DNA from: a virus
Length of the DNA stretch: 64,000 nucleotides
IMG/VR virus record: IMGVR_UViG_3300049020_000031
Coordinates: 1 to 64,000 of that record
Reading direction: 5' to 3' (one strand)
Made by a program: the position numbers and the translations under genes. The notes under the pieces are model-generated. The model saw only the letters and a program-made list of their open reading frames with translations. It searched no databases and had not been told where the DNA came from. Positions 1,226 through 64,000 of the stretch are shown here, piece after piece (the first letter of the stretch is position 1; each line of letters opens with the position of its first letter).

Positions 1226-1636
1226 ATGAATATGCAAGACTACGAAAAACAGATCATCGTATTGAGAAAAGATCTCGATATGGGAAAGGGTAAACTCATC
1301 GCCCAAGGTGCCCACGCAAGTATGGGTGCGATCCTGCGGAATGGATCGTTTCAAACCAATCCTGACGGAAAGACTCAGTTTGTGATTGACCTCGATCCAG
1401 CCATAGAAGGTTGGCTTCGTGGTTCTTTTACCAAGATTGCCGTATGGTGTGCGGATGAAGCCGAGTTGATGGCATTACATCACCAAGCCCTGGATGCTGG
1501 ACTTCATACGATCCTAATCAAGGATAACGGCAAGACTGCCTTCCATGGTGTTCCGACTCATACCGCTATTGCGATTGGTCCGGCACTTGCTTCCGTTCTT
1601 GATCCTATCACCAGACATTTGAAGTTGATTAACTGA
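1226..1636 (+). CDS. pth2: peptidyl-tRNA hydrolase, Pth2 family
   Basis: KQIIVLRKDLDMGKGKLIAQGAHAS, TKIAV, IKDNGKT, TAIAIGP match Pth2 signatures. Confidence 0.92.
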   Translation: MNMQDYEKQIIVLRKDLDMGKGKLIAQGAHASMGAILRNGSFQTNPDGKTQFVIDLDPAIEGWLRGSFTKIAVWCADEAELMALHHQALDAGLHTILIKDNGKTAFHGVPTHTAIAIGPALASVLDPITRHLKLIN

Positions 1637-1854: not shown

Positions 1855-2057
1855 GTGATTCCCAAGATGTAATAGACACATTAACATATGGTGATCGTCA
1901 ACCCAACATGTGGTGCCGTATTGGTATTCATAAGTGGACTAGATGGAAGATAGTCCACTCTGGTAGGTACTCGGACACCAAGAGTTTGTACTACGATATG
2001 CAGACTGACTGTAAACAATGCGGTCTTCCAAAACTAAAAGAAGTGGTTCAGAAATGA
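1851..2057 (+). CDS. small Cys/His-rich phage protein (paralog of previous)
   Basis: WCRIGIHKW...CKQCG; ATGA overlap. Confidence 0.7.
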   Translation: MSDSQDVIDTLTYGDRQPNMWCRIGIHKWTRWKIVHSGRYSDTKSLYYDMQTDCKQCGLPKLKEVVQK

Positions 2058-2623
2058 AAAAGCAAGTTCAATATCGACATGGTGATCTATTGTCACACAA
2101 AGGCCGATTCGTCATGCACGGCTGTAACGCTCAGGGTGTTATGGGTTCCGGTGTTGCAAAAGAAATCAGAGCAACCTATCCATTGGCATACACCAAGTAT
2201 CGAGAAAAGTACGAGGAAGAAAACAAACTGGTGATGGGCTCCGTCGTCGCGGTAGATTGTGGTCGACATGTGATCTTCAATGCCATCACCCAAGAATTCT
2301 TTGGTAAGGATGGTCGGAGGTACGTGGACTACTCCGCGATATCCACCGCCCTTGTTTCGATCAACAAGCTGATCAATGACGCCAAACGAGAATTTGAGGG
2401 TAATCGATTCGCCCAACAAAGTAGGGGATATGGTTGGACTCCTTTTGAAGAAGAGGAACCCATTGAGCTGGCCATGCCCTTGATTGGTGCTGGTCTTGGT
2501 GGTGGGGATTGGGGAATCATTTCCAACATCCTCAGCCAGGACTATGAATTCCAACCAGTTGTCTATATTCGTGAGCTCGAACAATATCAAAAGATTGTTA
2601 AAGAATATCAGCAGGTAGATTGA
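2054..2623 (+). CDS. macro domain protein (ADP-ribose / Appr-1-p processing family)
   Basis: GDLL, HGCNAQGVMGSGVA, MPLIGAGLGGGDW motifs; start moved to ATG 2054 (ATGA overlap). Confidence 0.9.
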   Translation: MKKQVQYRHGDLLSHKGRFVMHGCNAQGVMGSGVAKEIRATYPLAYTKYREKYEEENKLVMGSVVAVDCGRHVIFNAITQEFFGKDGRRYVDYSAISTALVSINKLINDAKREFEGNRFAQQSRGYGWTPFEEEEPIELAMPLIGAGLGGGDWGIISNILSQDYEFQPVVYIRELEQYQKIVKEYQQVD

Positions 2624-2647
2624 AATCTAGAAAATTGGTAGTAGAAT
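2620..2647 (+). promoter_or_regulatory. sigma70-like promoter for the tRNA-like RNA array
   Basis: TTGAAA(2620-2625)-16 nt-TAGAAT(2642-2647), about 10 nt before unit 1. Confidence 0.6.
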
Positions 2648-2656
2648 AGAGTTATT

Positions 2657-2790
2657 AGGATAGATGCAGCAATCTATAACAATGGAATTTGAGAACTAAG
2701 GGTTCGAGCCCCTTTCTAGTGAGCAATCACTAGGTGGCGAAATTGGTAAACGCATCAAATGTTTTGGGTCGAAAGACCTGCTATCCTGTT
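2657..2790 (+). ncRNA. permuted tRNA-like (YrlA/Y-RNA-like) RNA, unit 1
   Basis: outer helix AGGATAG/CTATCCT; CAGCAA; anticodon-like stem ATTTGA/TCAAAT; T arm AAGGG-TTCGAGC-CCCTT; acceptor hairpin TCTAGTGA-GCAA-TCACTAGG; D arm TGGCGAAATTGGTAAACGC; extra GGTC-GAAA-GACC hairpin. Confidence 0.85.
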
Positions 2791-2797
2791 AAAATTT

Positions 2798-2890
2798 GGA
2801 ATGTGCGCAGCAAATAAAATTGCAGGTTCGACTCCTGTTATGAATGGCAACGTTCATAACTTTGCCCATGGAAGGGCATCACATTCCGTT
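2798..2890 (+). ncRNA. permuted tRNA-like RNA, unit 2 (minimal)
   Basis: outer helix GGAATGTG/CACATTCC; CAGCAA; T arm GCAGG-TTCGACT-CCTGT; acceptor hairpin TATGAATG-GCAA-CGTTCATA; D-like hairpin TGCCC-ATGGAA-GGGCA. Confidence 0.8.
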
Positions 2891-2896
2891 AAATTT

Positions 2897-3014
2897 GGGT
2901 TCCGTTCAGCAACTAATTTTCAATCAGCCTGTCGCGGGTTCGAGCCCCGCATAGTTCCTTGGGACTATTAGCTCAGTTGGGAGAGCAGCCGACTCATAAA
3001 AAAGTGAACCCGTT
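2897..3014 (+). ncRNA. permuted tRNA-like RNA, unit 3 (tRNA-CAU-like)
   Basis: outer helix GGGTTC/GAACCC; CAGCAA; T arm GCGGG-TTCGAGC-CCCGC; acceptor ATAGTTC-CTTG-GGACTAT; canonical D arm TAGCTCAGTTGGGAGAGC; GCCGA-CTCATAA. Confidence 0.87.
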
Positions 3015-3028
3015 ATTTTGAAGTTTTT

Positions 3029-3173
3029 TGGATCGATACAGCATACTTAAATGTATATCAAATTGAAATCATGAGGTTCGATTCCTCATAGCCCACCTGG
3101 TGGGTTTGGTCTAGTGGCAGGACATCATTCCCGAAAGGGGCAGCAGGCCGGGATGTTCCCGGAACGATCCAGT
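3029..3173 (+). ncRNA. permuted tRNA-like RNA, unit 4
   Basis: outer helix TGGATCG/CGATCCA; CAGCAT; T arm TGAGG-TTCGATT-CCTCA; acceptor hairpin AGCCCAC-CTG-GTGGGTT; D arm TGGTCTAGTGGCAGGAC; two extra hairpins. Confidence 0.82.
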
Positions 3174-3177
3174 AAAT

Positions 3178-3208
3178 GATGAGCGGAGCAATCCGCTCAT
3201 CGCCTTTT
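3178..3208 (+). terminator. intrinsic terminator closing the RNA array
   Basis: GATGAGCGGA-GCAA-TCCGCTCATC followed by GCCTTTT. Confidence 0.75.
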
Positions 3209-3247
3209 GAGATTGATGAATTCCACTTGTGATGCTAGAGTTGGCTA

Positions 3248-3736
3248 ATGAATATACGTGACTTGAAATCCAAATTTGCGTCTTGGTTGATGCGCGACGC
3301 TATCAACCAAGAGGTTGACCTGCAAGTGAAGAAGTTCTTCGACTCTCGAAACCAGGATCGGCAGAGTTTTCGAGAACACGAGGCGCAATCACGACTTGGT
3401 AAATTGTGGATCGTAGTGTCCAATGAAATCGAAGATATCAGGGTGTGTTACGGGAAAGAATTCATGTTTATCACTATGGATAATACGCCGGCCGTGGTGT
3501 TCCATGATGTGGTAACGGGCGAGGACTTGATATGCGGTGGTGCTATTCTGGCGTATAATGAACAACGATATCTAGCTCTAGTTGGGATGGACCCCAACGC
3601 TAGAATTTCCCTATTCTTCAATCGCGAAGAACACAAACCTACCGATAAAACCAAAACACAAGCCAGGCCAACCACTCCCGTCAGCGAACAGATTGAAAAA
3701 ACTCGCCTCGCTGTAGAAAAATTCATAAAAGTGTAG
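3248..3736 (+). CDS. hypothetical protein
   Basis: 162 aa ORF between RNA array and DUF2828 gene. Confidence 0.7.
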   Translation: MNIRDLKSKFASWLMRDAINQEVDLQVKKFFDSRNQDRQSFREHEAQSRLGKLWIVVSNEIEDIRVCYGKEFMFITMDNTPAVVFHDVVTGEDLICGGAILAYNEQRYLALVGMDPNARISLFFNREEHKPTDKTKTQARPTTPVSEQIEKTRLAVEKFIKV

Positions 3737-3788
3737 TTGCCAGGTTTTCCAGGTGCTACAATGCATTCCTCACAGATAATGAAACCCA

Positions 3789-3823
3789 GGTTGGGTTCAG
3801 CAAACTCAATTTAACCAACCAGT
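3789..3823 (+). promoter_or_regulatory. leader element: scaffold-only copy of the array motif
   Basis: GGTTGG-GTT-CAGCAA...CCAACC-AGT directly before RBS AAGGA (3829-3833) and ATG 3839; extended -10 TGcTACAAT at 3754-3762. Confidence 0.7.
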
Positions 3824-3838
3824 AAACAAAGGAACAAT

Positions 3839-5245
3839 ATGGATCTCGCAAACGCATTCAAGGCTCAAGAAACCACCACCACGAACGGTATGGCCGCTCT
3901 CCAGTCCACCATGGACTCTAACGTGGACCTGTTCTTCAAGATTGGTGCAAGCCGCGGAAAAAACATTGTTCCTCAGTTCACCGCAGCATTCGTGGAAAAT
4001 CGCGAACTGGCTCTGCGTATCGCGCTGTGGGCACGTGACGTTCGCGGTGGTGCAGGTGAACGTCAACTGTTCCGTGATGTTCTGAACTATCTGGAGGGTG
4101 TCGATCCTGATGCAGCTCGCTCCCTGATTCTCTCGACTCCTGAACTGGGTCGTTGGGATGATCTCCTGATTGTGAAGACTCCAGCTCTCCGCGACCTGGC
4201 GTTCAGCTTGATCAAGGCCGGTCTGGAATCCCAGAACGGTCTGTGTGCAAAGTGGATGCCACGTAAGGGCAAGGATGCTGAAGCTCTGCGAGCATACCTG
4301 GGATACAGCCCAAAGCGCTATCGCAAGACTTTGGTTACCTTGACGCAAGTCGTGGAAACCCAAATGTGTGCCAAGGATTGGGATAACATCAACTTCTCCC
4401 ACGTTCCTTCCGTGGCCGCTGGCCGTTACCGCAAGGCATTCAAGAAGAATGCCGAAGAAGCATACACGAAGTATGCTGAAGGTCTGGCTACCGGTGAAAC
4501 CAAGATCAACGCTGGTGCGGTGTTCCCTTATGATGTCCTGAAGGGCAACATGAATGGTTACCAACGAGCAACTCTGACCAAGGTTGAACGCGATGTGATC
4601 TTGGCTCAGTGGGCTGCACTGGAAAATGTGGTTGGTGATGCCAAGATGTTGCCTATGGTTGACGTGTCCGGCTCCATGAGCTGCCCAGCTGGTACCAAGA
4701 GCTCGGTGACTTGTATGGACGTGGCTGTGAGCTTGGGCCTGTATCTGGCTGAAAAGAACACTGGTTCGTTCCGTGATATGTTCATCACGTTCACGGAACA
4801 ACCAACTCTGTATGCTCTGAAGGGTAACGTGTTGGATAAGCTGGACCAGATGACTGGACAGGTTGGTTACAACACGAACCTGGAAGCCGCGTACGATGCG
4901 TTGCTGAAGGTCGCAGTAACCTCCAAGGTTGCTCAGGAAGACATGCCTGAGTACATTGTGATGTTGTCGGATATGCAGTTTGACGGTTGCACTGGTCGCC
5001 CAACGGCTTCCGCGATCGACATGATCCGTGACAAGTACAAGGCTGCTGGTTACACCGCTCCAAAGGTGGTGTTCTGGAACATCAACGCGCACGACAATGT
5101 GCCAGTGAAGTTCAATGATCTGGGCGTTGCTCTGATCAGCGGCTTCTCCCCAACGATCGTTAAGTCGGTCCTGACGGCACAGAAGTTCAGCCCACAAGGC
5201 ATCATGTTGGAAGCTGTGATGTCTGATCGCTACAAGCCACAGTAA
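3839..5245 (+). CDS. DUF2828-type Ro60/TROVE-like helical domain + vWA protein
   Basis: TTNG, DLFF, ARDVRGGAGER, GRWDDL, AKWMPR N-terminal motifs; MIDAS DVSGSM...NTN...SDMQFD, VFWN, SGFSP; strong codon bias. Confidence 0.88.
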   Translation: MDLANAFKAQETTTTNGMAALQSTMDSNVDLFFKIGASRGKNIVPQFTAAFVENRELALRIALWARDVRGGAGERQLFRDVLNYLEGVDPDAARSLILSTPELGRWDDLLIVKTPALRDLAFSLIKAGLESQNGLCAKWMPRKGKDAEALRAYLGYSPKRYRKTLVTLTQVVETQMCAKDWDNINFSHVPSVAAGRYRKAFKKNAEEAYTKYAEGLATGETKINAGAVFPYDVLKGNMNGYQRATLTKVERDVILAQWAALENVVGDAKMLPMVDVSGSMSCPAGTKSSVTCMDVAVSLGLYLAEKNTGSFRDMFITFTEQPTLYALKGNVLDKLDQMTGQVGYNTNLEAAYDALLKVAVTSKVAQEDMPEYIVMLSDMQFDGCTGRPTASAIDMIRDKYKAAGYTAPKVVFWNINAHDNVPVKFNDLGVALISGFSPTIVKSVLTAQKFSPQGIMLEAVMSDRYKPQ

Positions 5246-5259
5246 TGTGGTGAGGATGA

Positions 5260-5289
5260 AATAAAACCGGCCTAATCGCCGGTTTTATT
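5260..5289. terminator. bidirectional-type intrinsic terminator
   Basis: AATAAAACCGGC-CTAATC-GCCGGTTTTATT. Confidence 0.8.
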
Positions 5290-5328
5290 CATTTGTAATG
5301 TAGAATGCCATAACTTTGGAGGAATTTC

Positions 5329-54712: not shown

Positions 54713-55747
54713 TCAGACGTCGCTGACCTTCAATTTATTTACCGTCATGGGGCCGCGCTGCCAATGATGGGCTGATGGTTGAACGTGATCTTTTCTCACA
54801 AACTTGGCAACACTTCCGCGAAATTGAGAATAAGCAAATTCATCAGCCAATCGAACCACATAACCTTCACAAGTTTTGGAACTCTTGGTTTTCCACAGTG
54901 CTCTGATTGCCTTTTCATCCCAGATACCATCGTACCACACGGGCACTTGTTCAATATCAAGAAGTTGGAAGAATTGAACAGTGGTATCCCAATCCAAGCA
55001 AACGTTCCGTTCATTCCAAATGCTGTAGCCCATAACGTATGAATTCAGGGAATCATACTCAATGGAATGTTTGGCGTACAGGTTTTCCAAACAGATTCGC
55101 CAATATTCCGGAATATCACCACATCGTTTCGCCCACTCGGCCTTCATCCAGTTTCTGGAGGGGTGATTCTTGCTGTCAACGCTTCGGGCATGGCAATAGT
55201 CCTGATACCATGTGGTATTTTCACCATCCATCTTCTCGGTGACTATGACTCTTCGACCTTCGAACTGACTCACGGATTCAATCATACGATCATCCGATGT
55301 CATGTTTTCCGACCATGGGAGATGGTAAGTTCTTGGATATTTGACGTGATGGGTGAAGTCTTTCAGGAATCCACCAGAATTCAGAATCTTCTGAACCGAC
55401 TCATCAAAGAACAGATCACCCTTGAGCCTTTGACCATTTGGCATGACTGGGTTTCCCCACTTGTCATATTCTTGGTCTGGGTATAGGTGTGGGGGAATTG
55501 GAAACTTGGTGATGCCACAGGCGTCACGAACTTGACTCAACGAAATCGTGGTCTGTTCACAGAGGATGTGATGTTCTTCACAAACTGATGCACCGTTCTC
55601 CAGATAGTAACCACCGTCTGGCCACAGTTTTCGTTCCATTATGTGATGGGCATCCTTTGCGTCTTTGTCACAGAAGACGCATTTGTGATTGTCGCGAGAG
55701 AAAACACCTTCTCTGAAGTCGTCGCGTGATAAGAGTTTGAATGCCAT
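54713..55747 (-). CDS. HNH-like domain fused to ATP-dependent RNA ligase
   Basis: N-terminal RDNHKCVFC..AHH..NGASVCEEHH; ligase KYPRT, TEKMDGEN, EGYVVR, AKFVR. Confidence 0.87.
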   Translation of the reverse strand: MAFKLLSRDDFREGVFSRDNHKCVFCDKDAKDAHHIMERKLWPDGGYYLENGASVCEEHHILCEQTTISLSQVRDACGITKFPIPPHLYPDQEYDKWGNPVMPNGQRLKGDLFFDESVQKILNSGGFLKDFTHHVKYPRTYHLPWSENMTSDDRMIESVSQFEGRRVIVTEKMDGENTTWYQDYCHARSVDSKNHPSRNWMKAEWAKRCGDIPEYWRICLENLYAKHSIEYDSLNSYVMGYSIWNERNVCLDWDTTVQFFQLLDIEQVPVWYDGIWDEKAIRALWKTKSSKTCEGYVVRLADEFAYSQFRGSVAKFVRKDHVQPSAHHWQRGPMTVNKLKVSDV

Positions 55748-62930: not shown

Positions 62931-64000
62931 ATGCACACTACGATTCTCAATCAGGACCTCATGACGTTGCGACAAGCCTTTCTGGATGCTGGTCGGGACA
63001 TCCGTTTGGTTGGTGGTGTAGTTCGTGACCTTATCATGGGGCAAACACCCAAGGACATCGACCTTTGCACTGATGCAACTCCAGACGAACAGCATGCGAT
63101 CTACATGAATGCTGGTTTGCAGTACGTTGACACTGGCATTGATCACGGCACTATCACGGTGGTGATGAATGGTGAAGGTTACGAAATCACCAGCTTGCGC
63201 ACTGAAAGCCAACATGATGGCCGTCATGCTGTGGTGGCGTTTACTCGTGATTGGACGGAAGACTTGAGTCGTCGTGACCTCACAATCAATGCAATTTCAA
63301 TGACGTTTGATGGTGAAATCCATGATCCTTTTGGTGGTGTCCAGGATATCGAGAACAATGTTGTTCGATTCGTGGGTAATCCACAGGAACGTATGACCGA
63401 AGACTACTTGCGCATCATGCGTTACTTCCGATTCCTTGGTCGTATGGCCGGTGAACGTGATGAAGACTATGACCGCTATCTTGATATCAAGATCGATCCA
63501 GTGACTGTTAATGCAATCTACCAGTGTGTTGATGGATTGGCCGGAGTCAGTGCTGAGCGTATCTGGGTGGAATTGAAGAAGATCGTTGCTCACCCATCAG
63601 CATTTGTTGTTTTGACACACATGAAGCGTTTGGGAGTGTTTTCTCCTGCTCGTATCCCATACAGCTTGGACCCCGATGAAGTTCATGATGCTGGTGTGGG
63701 TGTTGGCATCAACGACCCAATCGTGATCTTGGCTTCATGCTTGGATAAGAGCGCGGTACGTAAAATCAGCACGGACTTGAAGTGGAGTTCCGAAGAAGTG
63801 AAGTGGGCTTTGGAATTCCAACGCATGCGGGAACACACTGCGGAAGACTTGTTCCGCGAAGTCATCCTGAATGGTACTCGGACGGATCATGCTTCGAAGG
63901 TGGCTCGCTTGAATGGATACCACTATGTCGCGACGTTGTTGACACAACCATTGCCCGTATGCCCGGTCAATGGGGCGACGTTGGCAGCTCGTGGTATGAA
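62931..64000 (+). CDS. cca: CCA-adding tRNA nucleotidyltransferase (class II), runs off window end; not in ORF track
   Basis: translated by hand: VGGVVRD..PKDIDL, EITSLR..DGRHA, RRDLTINA, EDYLRIMRYFRF; RBS GGAG. Confidence 0.9.
   Translation, partial: MHTTILNQDLMTLRQAFLDAGRDIRLVGGVVRDLIMGQTPKDIDLCTDATPDEQHAIYMNAGLQYVDTGIDHGTITVVMNGEGYEITSLRTESQHDGRHAVVAFTRDWTEDLSRRDLTINAISMTFDGEIHDPFGGVQDIENNVVRFVGNPQERMTEDYLRIMRYFRFLGRMAGERDEDYDRYLDIKIDPVTVNAIYQCVDGLAGVSAERIWVELKKIVAHPSAFVVLTHMKRLGVFSPARIPYSLDPDEVHDAGVGVGINDPIVILASCLDKSAVRKISTDLKWSSEEVKWALEFQRMREHTAEDLFREVILNGTRTDHASKVARLNGYHYVATLLTQPLPVCPVNGATLAARGM

What the first reader, a model, noticed from the sequence alone, without database searches (positions are those of the whole stretch)
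2922..2999. Unit 3 re-assembles into a canonical 73-nt tRNA with CAU anticodon
Seen: placing 2962-2999 before 2924-2958 gives GGACTAT-TA-GCTC AGTTGGGA GAGC-A-GCCGA CTCATAA TCAGC-CTGTC-GCGGG TTCGAGC CCCGC-ATAGTTC-C. That is a 7-bp acceptor stem, standard D and T arms, a 5-nt variable loop and a 7-nt anticodon loop with CAT, with one C-A mismatch in the anticodon stem. The break falls at the 3' edge of the anticodon loop, and AA is present on both halves. Established: permuted tRNA genes matured through a circular intermediate exist in some algae and archaea. Inference: this is either a recently captured tRNA-Met/Ile2 in the Y-like scaffold or a pre-tRNA matured by cut, ligation, acceptor-loop opening and CCA addition. 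This window encodes an RNA ligase and a CCA enzyme. Units 1, 2 and 4 do not give clean anticodon loops, which favours mimicry for them.
Basis: partly seen in the sequence, partly recalled or inferred. Interest (0 to 1): 0.75.

Follow-up and report, generated by a model that had tools for sequence, protein, structure and literature searches.

The report
Permuted tRNA-Lys mimic in Y-like RNA
Unit 3 is not a hidden tRNA gene. It is one of four small RNAs that most likely partner a phage Ro60-like protein, and its inner part is a circularly rearranged copy of a phage lysine tRNA whose anticodon loop now reads CAU.

Summary
Joining 2962-2999 to 2924-2958 gives a 73-nt cloverleaf that ARAGORN calls tRNA-Met(CAT).

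The call does not discriminate. ARAGORN reports a tRNA for almost any junction, and unit 3 reads UUC, CAU or UCA depending on where it is cut.

Unit 3 (2895-3016) belongs to an RNA family with a shared "handle": a covarying closing stem, CAGCA, an A-rich linker, and GTT after the stem. The family lies beside a DUF2828 gene whose predicted fold matches Ro60.

In 20 homologues the handle, T arm, loop-closed acceptor stem, D arm and anticodon-like stem all covary.

The cargo of unit 3 is 62/73 identical to genuine phage tRNA-Lys(CUU) genes. Its best match among CAU tRNAs is 54/73. Its CUCAUAA differs from the Lys loop CUCUUAA at one base. So the loop is a real anticodon-loop relic, on a Lys body rather than a Met/Ile2 body.

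The closest orthologue (L047) keeps the same stem strands, mismatch included, but has lost the loop.

I found nothing that supports cutting and ligation into a tRNA. Acceptor-loop opening by RNase P and CCA addition remains plausible by precedent (M. smegmatis YrlA).

This scan has noted the same RNA family on other phage genomes.

The parts
2620..2647 (+). Sigma-70-like promoter ahead of the four-unit RNA array
   Evidence: TTGAAA, 16-nt spacer, TAGAAT, 10 of 12 matches. This is a consensus match only, and the number of such sites in the region is no more than the shuffles give.
2657..2791 (+). Unit 1: handle RNA with a permuted cloverleaf cargo and an extra GAAA-capped hairpin at 2767-2778
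   Evidence: The closing stem 2657-2663 pairs with 2781-2787 and CAGCA starts at 2667. Model R2 scores it 42.8 bits.
2798..2891 (+). Unit 2: handle RNA with T arm, closed acceptor stem and D arm, but no anticodon-like stem
   Evidence: The closing stem 2798-2805 pairs with 2880-2887. R2 scores it 36.8 bits. Rfam YrlA gives 19 bits over the full model length.
2895..3016 (+). Unit 3, whole RNA: handle plus permuted tRNA-Lys-like cargo
   Evidence: R2 scores it 96.6 bits. All its helices covary in 20 homologues.
2896..2911 (+). Unit 3 handle, 5' side: stem strand 2896-2902, two bases, then TTCAGCA with CAGCA at 2907-2911
   Evidence: The stem strand pairs with 3006-3012. Handle columns are 100% paired in 20 homologues, and 4 of 7 pairs change on both sides. 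CAGCA is nearly invariant.
2924..2992 (+). Unit 3 cargo: circularly permuted cloverleaf. Order: anticodon-stem 3' strand, variable loop, T arm, acceptor stem closed by CTTG, D arm, anticodon-stem 5' strand
   Evidence: Rfam YrlA gives 33.5 bits over model positions 24-84. ARAGORN calls the re-joined form a tRNA. It is 62/73 identical to phage tRNA-Lys(CUU) genes.
2993..2999 (+). CTCATAA: anticodon-loop relic, open on its 3' side, running into the A-rich linker 3000-3005
   Evidence: It differs at one base from the CTCTTAA loop of the most similar tRNA-Lys genes. It is absent from the orthologue L047.
3006..3016 (+). Unit 3 handle, 3' side: stem strand 3006-3012, then the conserved GTT tail
   Evidence: The GTT tail is invariant in the alignment.
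3029..3175 (+). Unit 4: handle RNA with T arm, closed acceptor stem, D arm and long extra hairpins
   Evidence: Closing stem and CAGCA at 3039. R2 scores it 33.9 bits.
3178..3208 (+). Terminator-like hairpin (10-bp stem, GCAA loop) followed by TTTT, closing the array
   Evidence: Read directly. The pattern scan did not flag it, because the T run has only four bases.
3789..3824 (+). Fifth, cargo-less handle in the 5' leader of the Ro-like gene
   Evidence: The stem 3789-3794 pairs with 3815-3820, CAGCA is at 3798, and AGTA follows the stem.
3839..5245 (+). Ro60-like protein gene (DUF2828 + DUF7788), the presumed partner of the RNAs
   Evidence: Pfam. PHROG 850, 'RNA-binding protein'. The AlphaFold2 model (pLDDT 79) matches Ro60/TROVE structures over its full length: 9kop, 9l5y, 1yvr, E 2e-9 to 2e-7.

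Best explanation
Unit 3 is a non-coding partner RNA of the phage's Ro60-like protein, comparable to a Y RNA. It is not a tRNA gene. The four units lie between a promoter-like site and a terminator-like hairpin and are probably transcribed together. Each unit is closed by a handle (covarying stem, CAGCA, A-rich linker, GTT tail), which I infer is what the Ro-like protein grips. Inside the handle of unit 3 sits a circularly permuted copy of a phage-type tRNA-Lys(CUU). The natural tRNA ends are joined by a 4-nt loop, and the molecule is opened after position 38 of the anticodon loop, where both strands run into the handle. The cargo keeps everything needed for the tRNA L-shape, so it should attract proteins that recognise the tRNA body. 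CUCAUAA is what remains of the Lys anticodon loop after one substitution. It is not closed into a loop and is not conserved, so it probably does not decode. Shown: the anatomy, the covariation, the Lys ancestry and the Ro-like fold next door. Inferred: binding of the handle by the Ro-like protein, and the job of the mimic. That job may be recruiting or diverting tRNA-processing, repair or tRNA-cleaving enzymes.
For: The T arm, closed acceptor stem and D arm match Rfam YrlA at 33.5 bits. Twenty homologous units lie upstream of homologous Ro-like genes on the same strand. Their handle, T arm, acceptor stem, D arm and anticodon-like stem are 92% paired, and 22 of 27 pairs change on both sides. 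No shuffle out of 500 reaches this, and slid controls pair at 30-50%. RNAalifold recovers the handle and three arms independently. The neighbouring protein folds like Ro60, including a phage Ro60. The re-joined cargo is 62/73 identical to phage tRNA-Lys(CUU) genes. It is 58/73 identical to a tRNA-Lys(CUU) in a set of tRNAs not selected on unit 3's own sequence. Lys(CUU) remains the best match with the loop masked: score 35 against a median of 3. Related units carry other tRNA parts on the same handle. Some are whole cloverleaves opened at positions 26/27 to 29/30. Others are bare anticodon arms. Among the bare arms, 23 of 52 hairpins have YU-NNN-RA loops, against 0.6 expected. The window also holds a handle with no cargo.
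Against: No experiment shows that the Ro-like protein binds these RNAs. The single-sequence fold of unit 3 is no more stable than shuffles (z = -0.46), and its minimum-energy structure is not the cloverleaf. The family does display intact anticodon loops, including CUCAUAA in L065 3678-3740. Selection for a CAU-type loop in unit 3 therefore cannot be ruled out. The window's phage has no close relative in the collections (best Ro-like identity 65%), so the conservation of this exact loop could be tested in only one orthologue.
Confidence: 0.75

Rival explanations
1. Unit 3 is a true permuted tRNA gene. The transcript is cut at both edges of the anticodon loop, the ends are sealed by a phage RNA ligase, RNase P opens the acceptor loop, CCA is added, and a 73-nt tRNA(CAU) decodes AUG or AUA.
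For: The re-joined sequence is a flawless cloverleaf with U33, CAU and A37. The record encodes an Rnl2-type ligase, RtcB and a CCA-adding enzyme. ARAGORN finds only one ordinary tRNA in the 141.5-kb record.
Against: The body is Lys-type, not Met/Ile-type. By my own reading, position 73 would be C, which is unusual for bacterial Met, Ile or Lys tRNAs. The flanks form the conserved handle with a large asymmetric internal loop, not a bulge-helix-bulge or any other known cleavage motif. The orthologue L047 keeps the stems but not the loop. Sister RNAs on the same handle carry only anticodon arms or nothing. Other junctions give UUC or UCA equally cleanly.
Confidence: 0.03
2. Unit 3 stays on its handle, but RNase P opens its acceptor loop and the end is CCA-tailed, as in Mycobacterium smegmatis YrlA. 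This would give a two-piece RNA with a free acceptor end that might be charged, or might bind factors that need CCA.
For: Unit 3 has the 7-bp acceptor stem that Chen et al. 2014 (PMC4201824) name as the determinant of RNase P cleavage. That paper shows cleavage and CCA addition for M. smegmatis YrlA in vivo. The window encodes a CCA-adding enzyme at 63000-63368. All four units have 7-8-bp acceptor stems.
Against: The closing loop has only 4 nt, which may be too tight for RNase P. S. Typhimurium YrlA and D. radiodurans Yrn1 are not cleaved. Nothing in the sequence can show processing.
Confidence: 0.15
3. Unit 3 is a decaying remnant of two tandem tRNA-Lys genes (3' half of one, 5' half of the next) with no function of its own.
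For: Tandem identical tRNA genes yield exactly this order of parts. Relatives carry dense tRNA arrays around the Ro-like gene. My first model also scored across neighbouring tRNAs.
Against: The acceptor strands are joined by 4 nt and pair perfectly. The unit is framed by the conserved, covarying handle. The orthologue L047 has a different acceptor sequence that still pairs, and identical anticodon-stem strands. All tertiary-contact bases are intact.
Confidence: 0.05

Closest known systems
YrlA-type bacterial and mycobacteriophage Y RNAs (Rfam RF02553; Chen et al. 2014, PMC4201824; Wang et al. 2018, bioRxiv 10.1101/312249)
   Same: The 5'-to-3' order is the same: anticodon-like stem strand, variable loop, T arm, loop-closed acceptor stem, D arm, stem strand. 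The ends are closed by a terminal stem. The RNA is encoded on the same strand within 1 kb of a Ro60-fold gene. Several such RNAs occur per locus.
   Different: The GNCGAAN0-1G motif is missing, with CAGCA in its place. The Rfam score is 33.5 bits against a threshold of 69. The partner protein is DUF2828-type rather than Pfam TROVE. The cargo is much closer to a real tRNA, retains an anticodon-loop relic, and in the wider family is exchangeable (whole tRNA, anticodon arm, or nothing).
Mycobacterium smegmatis YrlA (cleaved by RNase P and CCA-tailed in vivo; PMC4201824)
   Same: It has a 7-bp acceptor stem closed by a loop.
   Different: Processing there gives a two-piece Y RNA, not a tRNA. No processing has been shown for unit 3.
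Permuted tRNA genes of Cyanidioschyzon merolae and some archaea (my own knowledge; no paper read here)
   Same: The 3' half is encoded ahead of the 5' half. The acceptor ends are linked by a short spacer. The break lies in the anticodon loop.
   Different: Those precursors form a bulge-helix-bulge that a splicing endonuclease cuts, and they give conserved, essential tRNAs. Here the flanks form a protein-binding handle, the anticodon is not conserved, and no such endonuclease is known in phages or bacteria.
Phage tRNA-Lys(CUU) genes (e.g. L090 4165-4240, L118 897-972, L079 1100-1175)
   Same: 62/73 (or 58/73) identical bases, including the D arm, the anticodon-stem 5' strand, the variable loop, the T arm and most of the acceptor stem. 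The loop differs at one base.
   Different: Unit 3 is circularly permuted and has no free ends. It carries a G-to-A change that creates a C.A mismatch in the anticodon stem, and a U35-to-A change.
Ro60-like gp130 of Escherichia phage Bas63 (PMC11482910)
   Same: It is a phage Ro60-fold protein next to a tRNA island. The authors suggest that some 'tRNA genes' there are Y RNAs. Felixounavirus proteins are 37-38% identical to the window's protein.
   Different: The reported role, countering the ppl defence, is genetic only, with no RNA partner defined. My handle scan found no clear unit beside the gene in one related felixounavirus, Escherichia phage Andreotti.

Membership tests
YrlA (Rfam RF02553) | tRNA-like domain with a T arm, a loop-closed acceptor stem and a D arm, in that order | tested here: met
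   Model positions 24-84 align at 33.5 bits, E 3e-5. The helices covary in homologues.
YrlA (Rfam RF02553) | Encoded within about 4 kb of a Ro60 orthologue, on the same strand | tested here: met
   The gene at 3839-5245 (+) has a Ro60/TROVE + vWA fold. Pfam, however, names it DUF2828/DUF7788, not TROVE.
YrlA (Rfam RF02553) | GNCGAAN0-1G motif near the 5' end (proposed Rsr contact; PMC4201824) | tested here: not met
   2895-2923 holds no such motif and has TTCAGCA in its place. Only unit 1 has GTCGAAAG, and there it sits in a 3'-side hairpin loop at 2768-2775.
YrlA (Rfam RF02553) | Rfam gathering score of 69 bits over the whole model | tested here: not met
   33.5 bits, partial match. There is no YrlA hit at the gathering threshold.
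CAGCA-handle RNAs beside DUF2828 Ro-like genes (no Rfam family, and none in the papers I searched) | Covarying 6-8-bp closing stem, CAGCA 1-4 nt after its 5' strand, A-rich 3' linker, G/TGTT after its 3' strand | tested here: met
   Unit 3 scores 96.6 bits with the family model R2.
CAGCA-handle RNAs beside DUF2828 Ro-like genes (no Rfam family, and none in the papers I searched) | Same strand as, and close to, a DUF2828 Ro-like gene | tested here: met
   Unit 3 ends 823 nt upstream of the gene. Homologous units lie upstream of homologous genes in the related loci.
Permuted tRNA gene (C. merolae / archaeal type) | 3' half upstream of 5' half, with the re-joined halves forming a canonical cloverleaf | tested here: met
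   ARAGORN calls tRNA-Met(cat), 73 nt.
Permuted tRNA gene (C. merolae / archaeal type) | Flanks of the two halves pair into a bulge-helix-bulge splice motif | tested here: not met
   The flanks form the handle plus a large asymmetric internal loop (about 21 nt on the 5' side and 13 nt on the 3' side). There is no arrangement of two 3-nt bulges around a 4-bp helix.
Permuted tRNA gene (C. merolae / archaeal type) | Anticodon and loop conserved in orthologues | tested here: not met
   L047 has the same stem strands, but its loop region lacks U33 and CAU. Other relatives have CAAAAAG-type linkers there.
Permuted tRNA gene (C. merolae / archaeal type) | A mature, CCA-ended, chargeable tRNA is produced | not testable with these tools
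   This needs RNA sequencing or Northern analysis of infected cells.
Ordinary tRNA gene | Detected in genomic order by tRNA finders | tested here: not met
   ARAGORN finds no tRNA in the window. The Rfam tRNA hit at 2962-3095 joins parts of units 3 and 4 across insertions of about 36 and 37 nt.

The most novel reading that the evidence does not exclude
Unit 3 becomes a working acceptor-ended molecule. RNase P opens the 4-nt acceptor loop, the phage CCA enzyme tails it, and either a phage ligase closes the anticodon loop to give a true tRNA(CAU), or the two-piece RNA is charged while still held on its Ro handle. This would be the first permuted or split tRNA made by a bacteriophage.
Probability: 0.04. 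Interest if true: 0.9.

Novelty: new variant of a known kind. Interest (0 to 1): 0.45.

Why it matters
Chen et al. (2014) proposed that YrlA-type Y RNAs arose from tRNAs. Unit 3 is an unusually clear intermediate. It is 85% identical to living phage tRNA-Lys genes, including a one-base-different anticodon loop, yet it is circularly permuted and mounted on a conserved handle beside a Ro60-fold gene.

Taken with its relatives, it suggests that these phages display exchangeable tRNA parts on one scaffold. That is what one would expect of a bait, decoy or recruiter for enzymes that recognise particular tRNAs: repair enzymes, modification enzymes, or host anticodon nucleases such as those that target tRNA-Lys.

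That function is untested. The system has at least one cultured carrier (Synechococcus phage BUCT-ZZ01), so it can be tested.

For annotation, the practical lesson is that a cloverleaf obtained by re-joining does not make a tRNA gene.

Tried and rejected
- **MAFFT on the four window units.** It misaligned the arms, so I built covariance models instead.
- **Core model R1.** It also scored across neighbouring ordinary tRNAs in relatives, taking the T arm of one and the D arm of the next. I removed those hits by overlap with ARAGORN calls.
- **ARAGORN on re-joined sequences as a test of tRNA-hood.** Rejected. It calls a tRNA for most junctions in nearly every related unit.
- **Similarity to CAU tRNAs.** 50 distinct CAU tRNAs of relatives score at most 23, against 43 for a tRNA-Lys. 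This argues against a Met/Ile2 origin.
- **The 38 loci.** They were selected with 24 nt of unit 3's own 5' half, so the identities are inflated for that half. The unselected set and the 3' half give the same answer.
- **Megablast of 2000-5300 against isolated phages.** No match.
- **phmmer of the Ro-like protein against PDB sequences.** No match. Only the fold search showed the Ro60 relationship.
- **Single-sequence folding of unit 3.** Uninformative, z = -0.46.
- **Literature search with 'TROVE'.** Swamped by the everyday word. 'DUF2828' alone returned only plant and tardigrade papers.
- **Matching the cargo bodies of relatives to the tRNA species of their displayed anticodon.** Mixed results, so I draw no conclusion.
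- **Handle scan beside the homologous genes of Vibrio phage KVP40 and a felixounavirus.** No convincing unit found.

Full report
**What is in the sequence.** The window is the first 64 kb of a 141.5-kb IMG/VR virus record that CheckV rates 33% complete, so it is a large phage. Four units lie between a promoter-like site at 2620-2647 and a hairpin plus T run at 3178-3208. Each unit has a T arm, a hairpin made of two acceptor-like strands, and a D arm, in that order.

The finding concerns the third unit. Joining 2962-2999 to 2924-2958 gives a 73-nt cloverleaf that ARAGORN calls tRNA-Met(cat), with a single C.A mismatch in the anticodon stem. In genomic order ARAGORN finds no tRNA in the window. 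The only Rfam hit at the gathering threshold is a tRNA match at 2962-3095 (29.2 bits, threshold 29). It joins unit 3's 5' half to unit 4's T arm across insertions of about 36 and 37 nt, and its acceptor strands pair poorly. I treat it as an artefact.

**What kind of RNA it is.** At a relaxed threshold, the core 2927-2989 matches Rfam YrlA, the tRNA-like Y RNA of bacteria and mycobacteriophages. The score is 33.5 bits against model positions 24-84, well under the family threshold of 69.

The next sizeable gene downstream (3839-5245, same strand) carries DUF2828 and DUF7788 and belongs to PHROG 850, 'RNA-binding protein'. An AlphaFold2 model built on 28 homologues (pLDDT 79) matches Ro60/TROVE structures over its full length. 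These include the Ro60 of Thermus phage phiLo, Xenopus Ro60 and Deinococcus Rsr. Upstream lie a PTH2 peptidyl-tRNA hydrolase and a macro-domain gene. Elsewhere the record encodes an Rnl2-type ligase, a CCA-adding enzyme and, outside the window, RtcB.

**Comparative evidence.** The viral collection holds 338 stretches that encode a relative of the Ro-like protein. I kept 80 of them, at 54-65% identity. A covariance model of the unit 3 core, and then a model of the whole unit, found homologous units upstream of the gene and always on its strand.

The homologues share a frame that I call the handle:
- a 6-8-bp closing stem whose sequence changes while its pairing is kept;
- CAGCA one to four bases after the 5' strand;
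- an A-rich linker before the 3' strand;
- G/TGTT after the 3' strand.

In 20 distinct homologues, 92% of cells in the proposed structure form standard pairs, against 68% in shuffles. Of 27 pairs, 22 change on both sides. No shuffle out of 500 reaches the observed values, and sliding the partners by 1-3 columns drops pairing to 30-50%. RNAalifold predicts the handle, T arm, acceptor stem and D arm on its own. All four window units have the handle. A fifth handle with no cargo sits at 3789-3824 in the leader of the Ro-like gene.

**What the handle carries.** The enclosed part varies across relatives.
- Some units hold a whole cloverleaf with an intact 5-bp, 7-nt-loop anticodon arm. These are opened inside the 5' strand of the anticodon stem, at 26/27, 27/28, 28/29 or 29/30 depending on the unit, while the total of 5 pairs is kept.
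- Others, like unit 3, make the anticodon stem from the incoming and outgoing strands and leave the loop open.
- Many short units hold only an anticodon arm. Of 52 such hairpins, 23 have a YU-NNN-RA loop, against 0.6 expected from shuffled interiors (maximum 4 in 200 trials). The displayed triplets include UGA, UCU, UUU, UGU, UGG, GUA, GUU, GCA, GAA, CUU and CAU.

The family therefore displays tRNA parts. It cannot in general be a way of making tRNAs.

**Where unit 3's cargo came from.** I compared the re-joined sequence with 504 distinct tRNAs called in the related loci. The best match is a tRNA-Lys(CUU) at 58/73 identity. The best of 50 CAU tRNAs scores far lower, 23 against 43.

A scan of the viral collection with 24 nt of unit 3's D arm and stem strand returned 38 loci. 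In 19 of them the pattern is followed by CTCTTAA and in 5 by CTTTTAA; most of these are genuine tRNA-Lys genes. Only one locus has CTCATAA. The closest tRNA-Lys(CUU) genes are 62/73 identical. The differences are one base in the loop (U35 to A) and one in the 3' stem strand. The stem change is what creates the C.A mismatch.

With the loop masked, Lys(CUU) genes still lead by about six standard deviations. Units 1, 2 and 4 have no close tRNA relative. CUCAUAA is therefore not a chance string. It is the remnant of a lysine tRNA's anticodon loop.

**Why I do not read it as a tRNA gene.**
1. L047 carries an orthologous unit with identical stem strands, including the same mismatch. Its acceptor stem has a different sequence that still pairs. 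The loop position there lacks both U33 and CAU. L047's Ro-like protein is only 57% identical, so the cargo is old. Selection has kept the arms but not the anticodon.
2. The reading is not unique. ARAGORN returns UUC, CAU or UCA for unit 3 depending on the junction, and it returns a tRNA for nearly every related unit.
3. The two flanks do not form a splice motif. They run through a large asymmetric internal loop, which contains the conserved CAGCA, into the handle stem.
4. By my own reading, position 73 would be C on a Lys-type body. That does not fit bacterial Met, Ile or Lys tRNAs.

**What remains open.** Chen et al. (PMC4201824) showed that M. smegmatis YrlA, which has a 7-bp acceptor stem, is cut by RNase P and CCA-tailed in vivo. 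The product there is a two-piece Y RNA, not a tRNA.

Wang et al. (bioRxiv 10.1101/312249) describe a kink in the YrlA stem that corresponds to the anticodon stem. The conserved C.A mismatch may play that part here.

A Ro60-like protein of phage Bas63 counters the ppl defence (PMC11482910). The window's protein has homologues in 710 isolated phages. The closest of these is in Synechococcus phage BUCT-ZZ01, which has three unannotated handle units just upstream of its gene.

I found no paper and no Rfam family describing the CAGCA handle. Other agents of this scan have noted the same family on several other phage genomes. Their notes agree with what I derived here before reading them.

**Verdict.** It is a tRNA-Lys-derived, circularly permuted tRNA mimic on a Y-RNA-like handle. 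It is not a permuted tRNA-Met/Ile2 gene.

Noticed in passing
window 3789-3824: A fifth handle with no cargo at all: a 6-bp stem, TTCAGCA, a 12-nt linker, the stem's 3' strand, then AGTA. It ends 15 nt before the start codon of the Ro-like gene. If the protein binds handles, it could regulate its own mRNA.
   Followed up: partly
G000:C1:111849-111923 (-) and 125769-126195 (-), outside the window: ARAGORN finds only one tRNA in the 141.5-kb record, with anticodon CUA (amber-suppressor type), plus a call of a permuted tmRNA (tag ANDNSYNQAIAA). Relatives carry as many as 27 ordinary tRNAs around the Ro-like gene. I did not check for stop-codon recoding.
   Followed up: no
window 1226-1636, 2018-2623, 54797-55252 (-), 63000-63368; G000:C1:105681-106811 (-): The record holds a set of RNA-end and tRNA-care genes: PTH2 peptidyl-tRNA hydrolase and a macro-domain protein just upstream of the RNA array, an Rnl2-type RNA ligase, a CCA-adding enzyme, and RtcB outside the window.
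   Followed up: partly
window 2767-2778 (unit 1) and about 3130-3139 (unit 4): Two units carry an extra GAAA-capped hairpin between the D arm and the handle. The one in unit 1 reads GTCGAAAG, which fits the GNCGAAN0-1G motif of YrlA. It lies on the 3' side rather than near the 5' end.
   Followed up: no
L085 2642-2819, 2828-2888, 2902-2969 (Synechococcus phage BUCT-ZZ01, ON615601.1): A cultured cyanophage has three unannotated handle units directly upstream of its DUF2828 gene, which is 48% identical to the window's. The middle unit shows a Lys-like CTTTTAC loop on a 6-bp stem.
   Followed up: partly
L065 3678-3740; L023 1426-1478, L025 3920-3972, L038 3919-3972: Short handle units in relatives display a closed CUCAUAA loop (L065) or a UUCAUAA-containing loop directly upstream of the Ro-like gene. 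CAU-type loops are therefore part of the family's repertoire.
   Followed up: partly
window 2759-2971 (+): A 70-codon open frame runs across units 1 to 3. It is almost certainly spurious, because the region is covered by covarying RNA structure.
   Followed up: no
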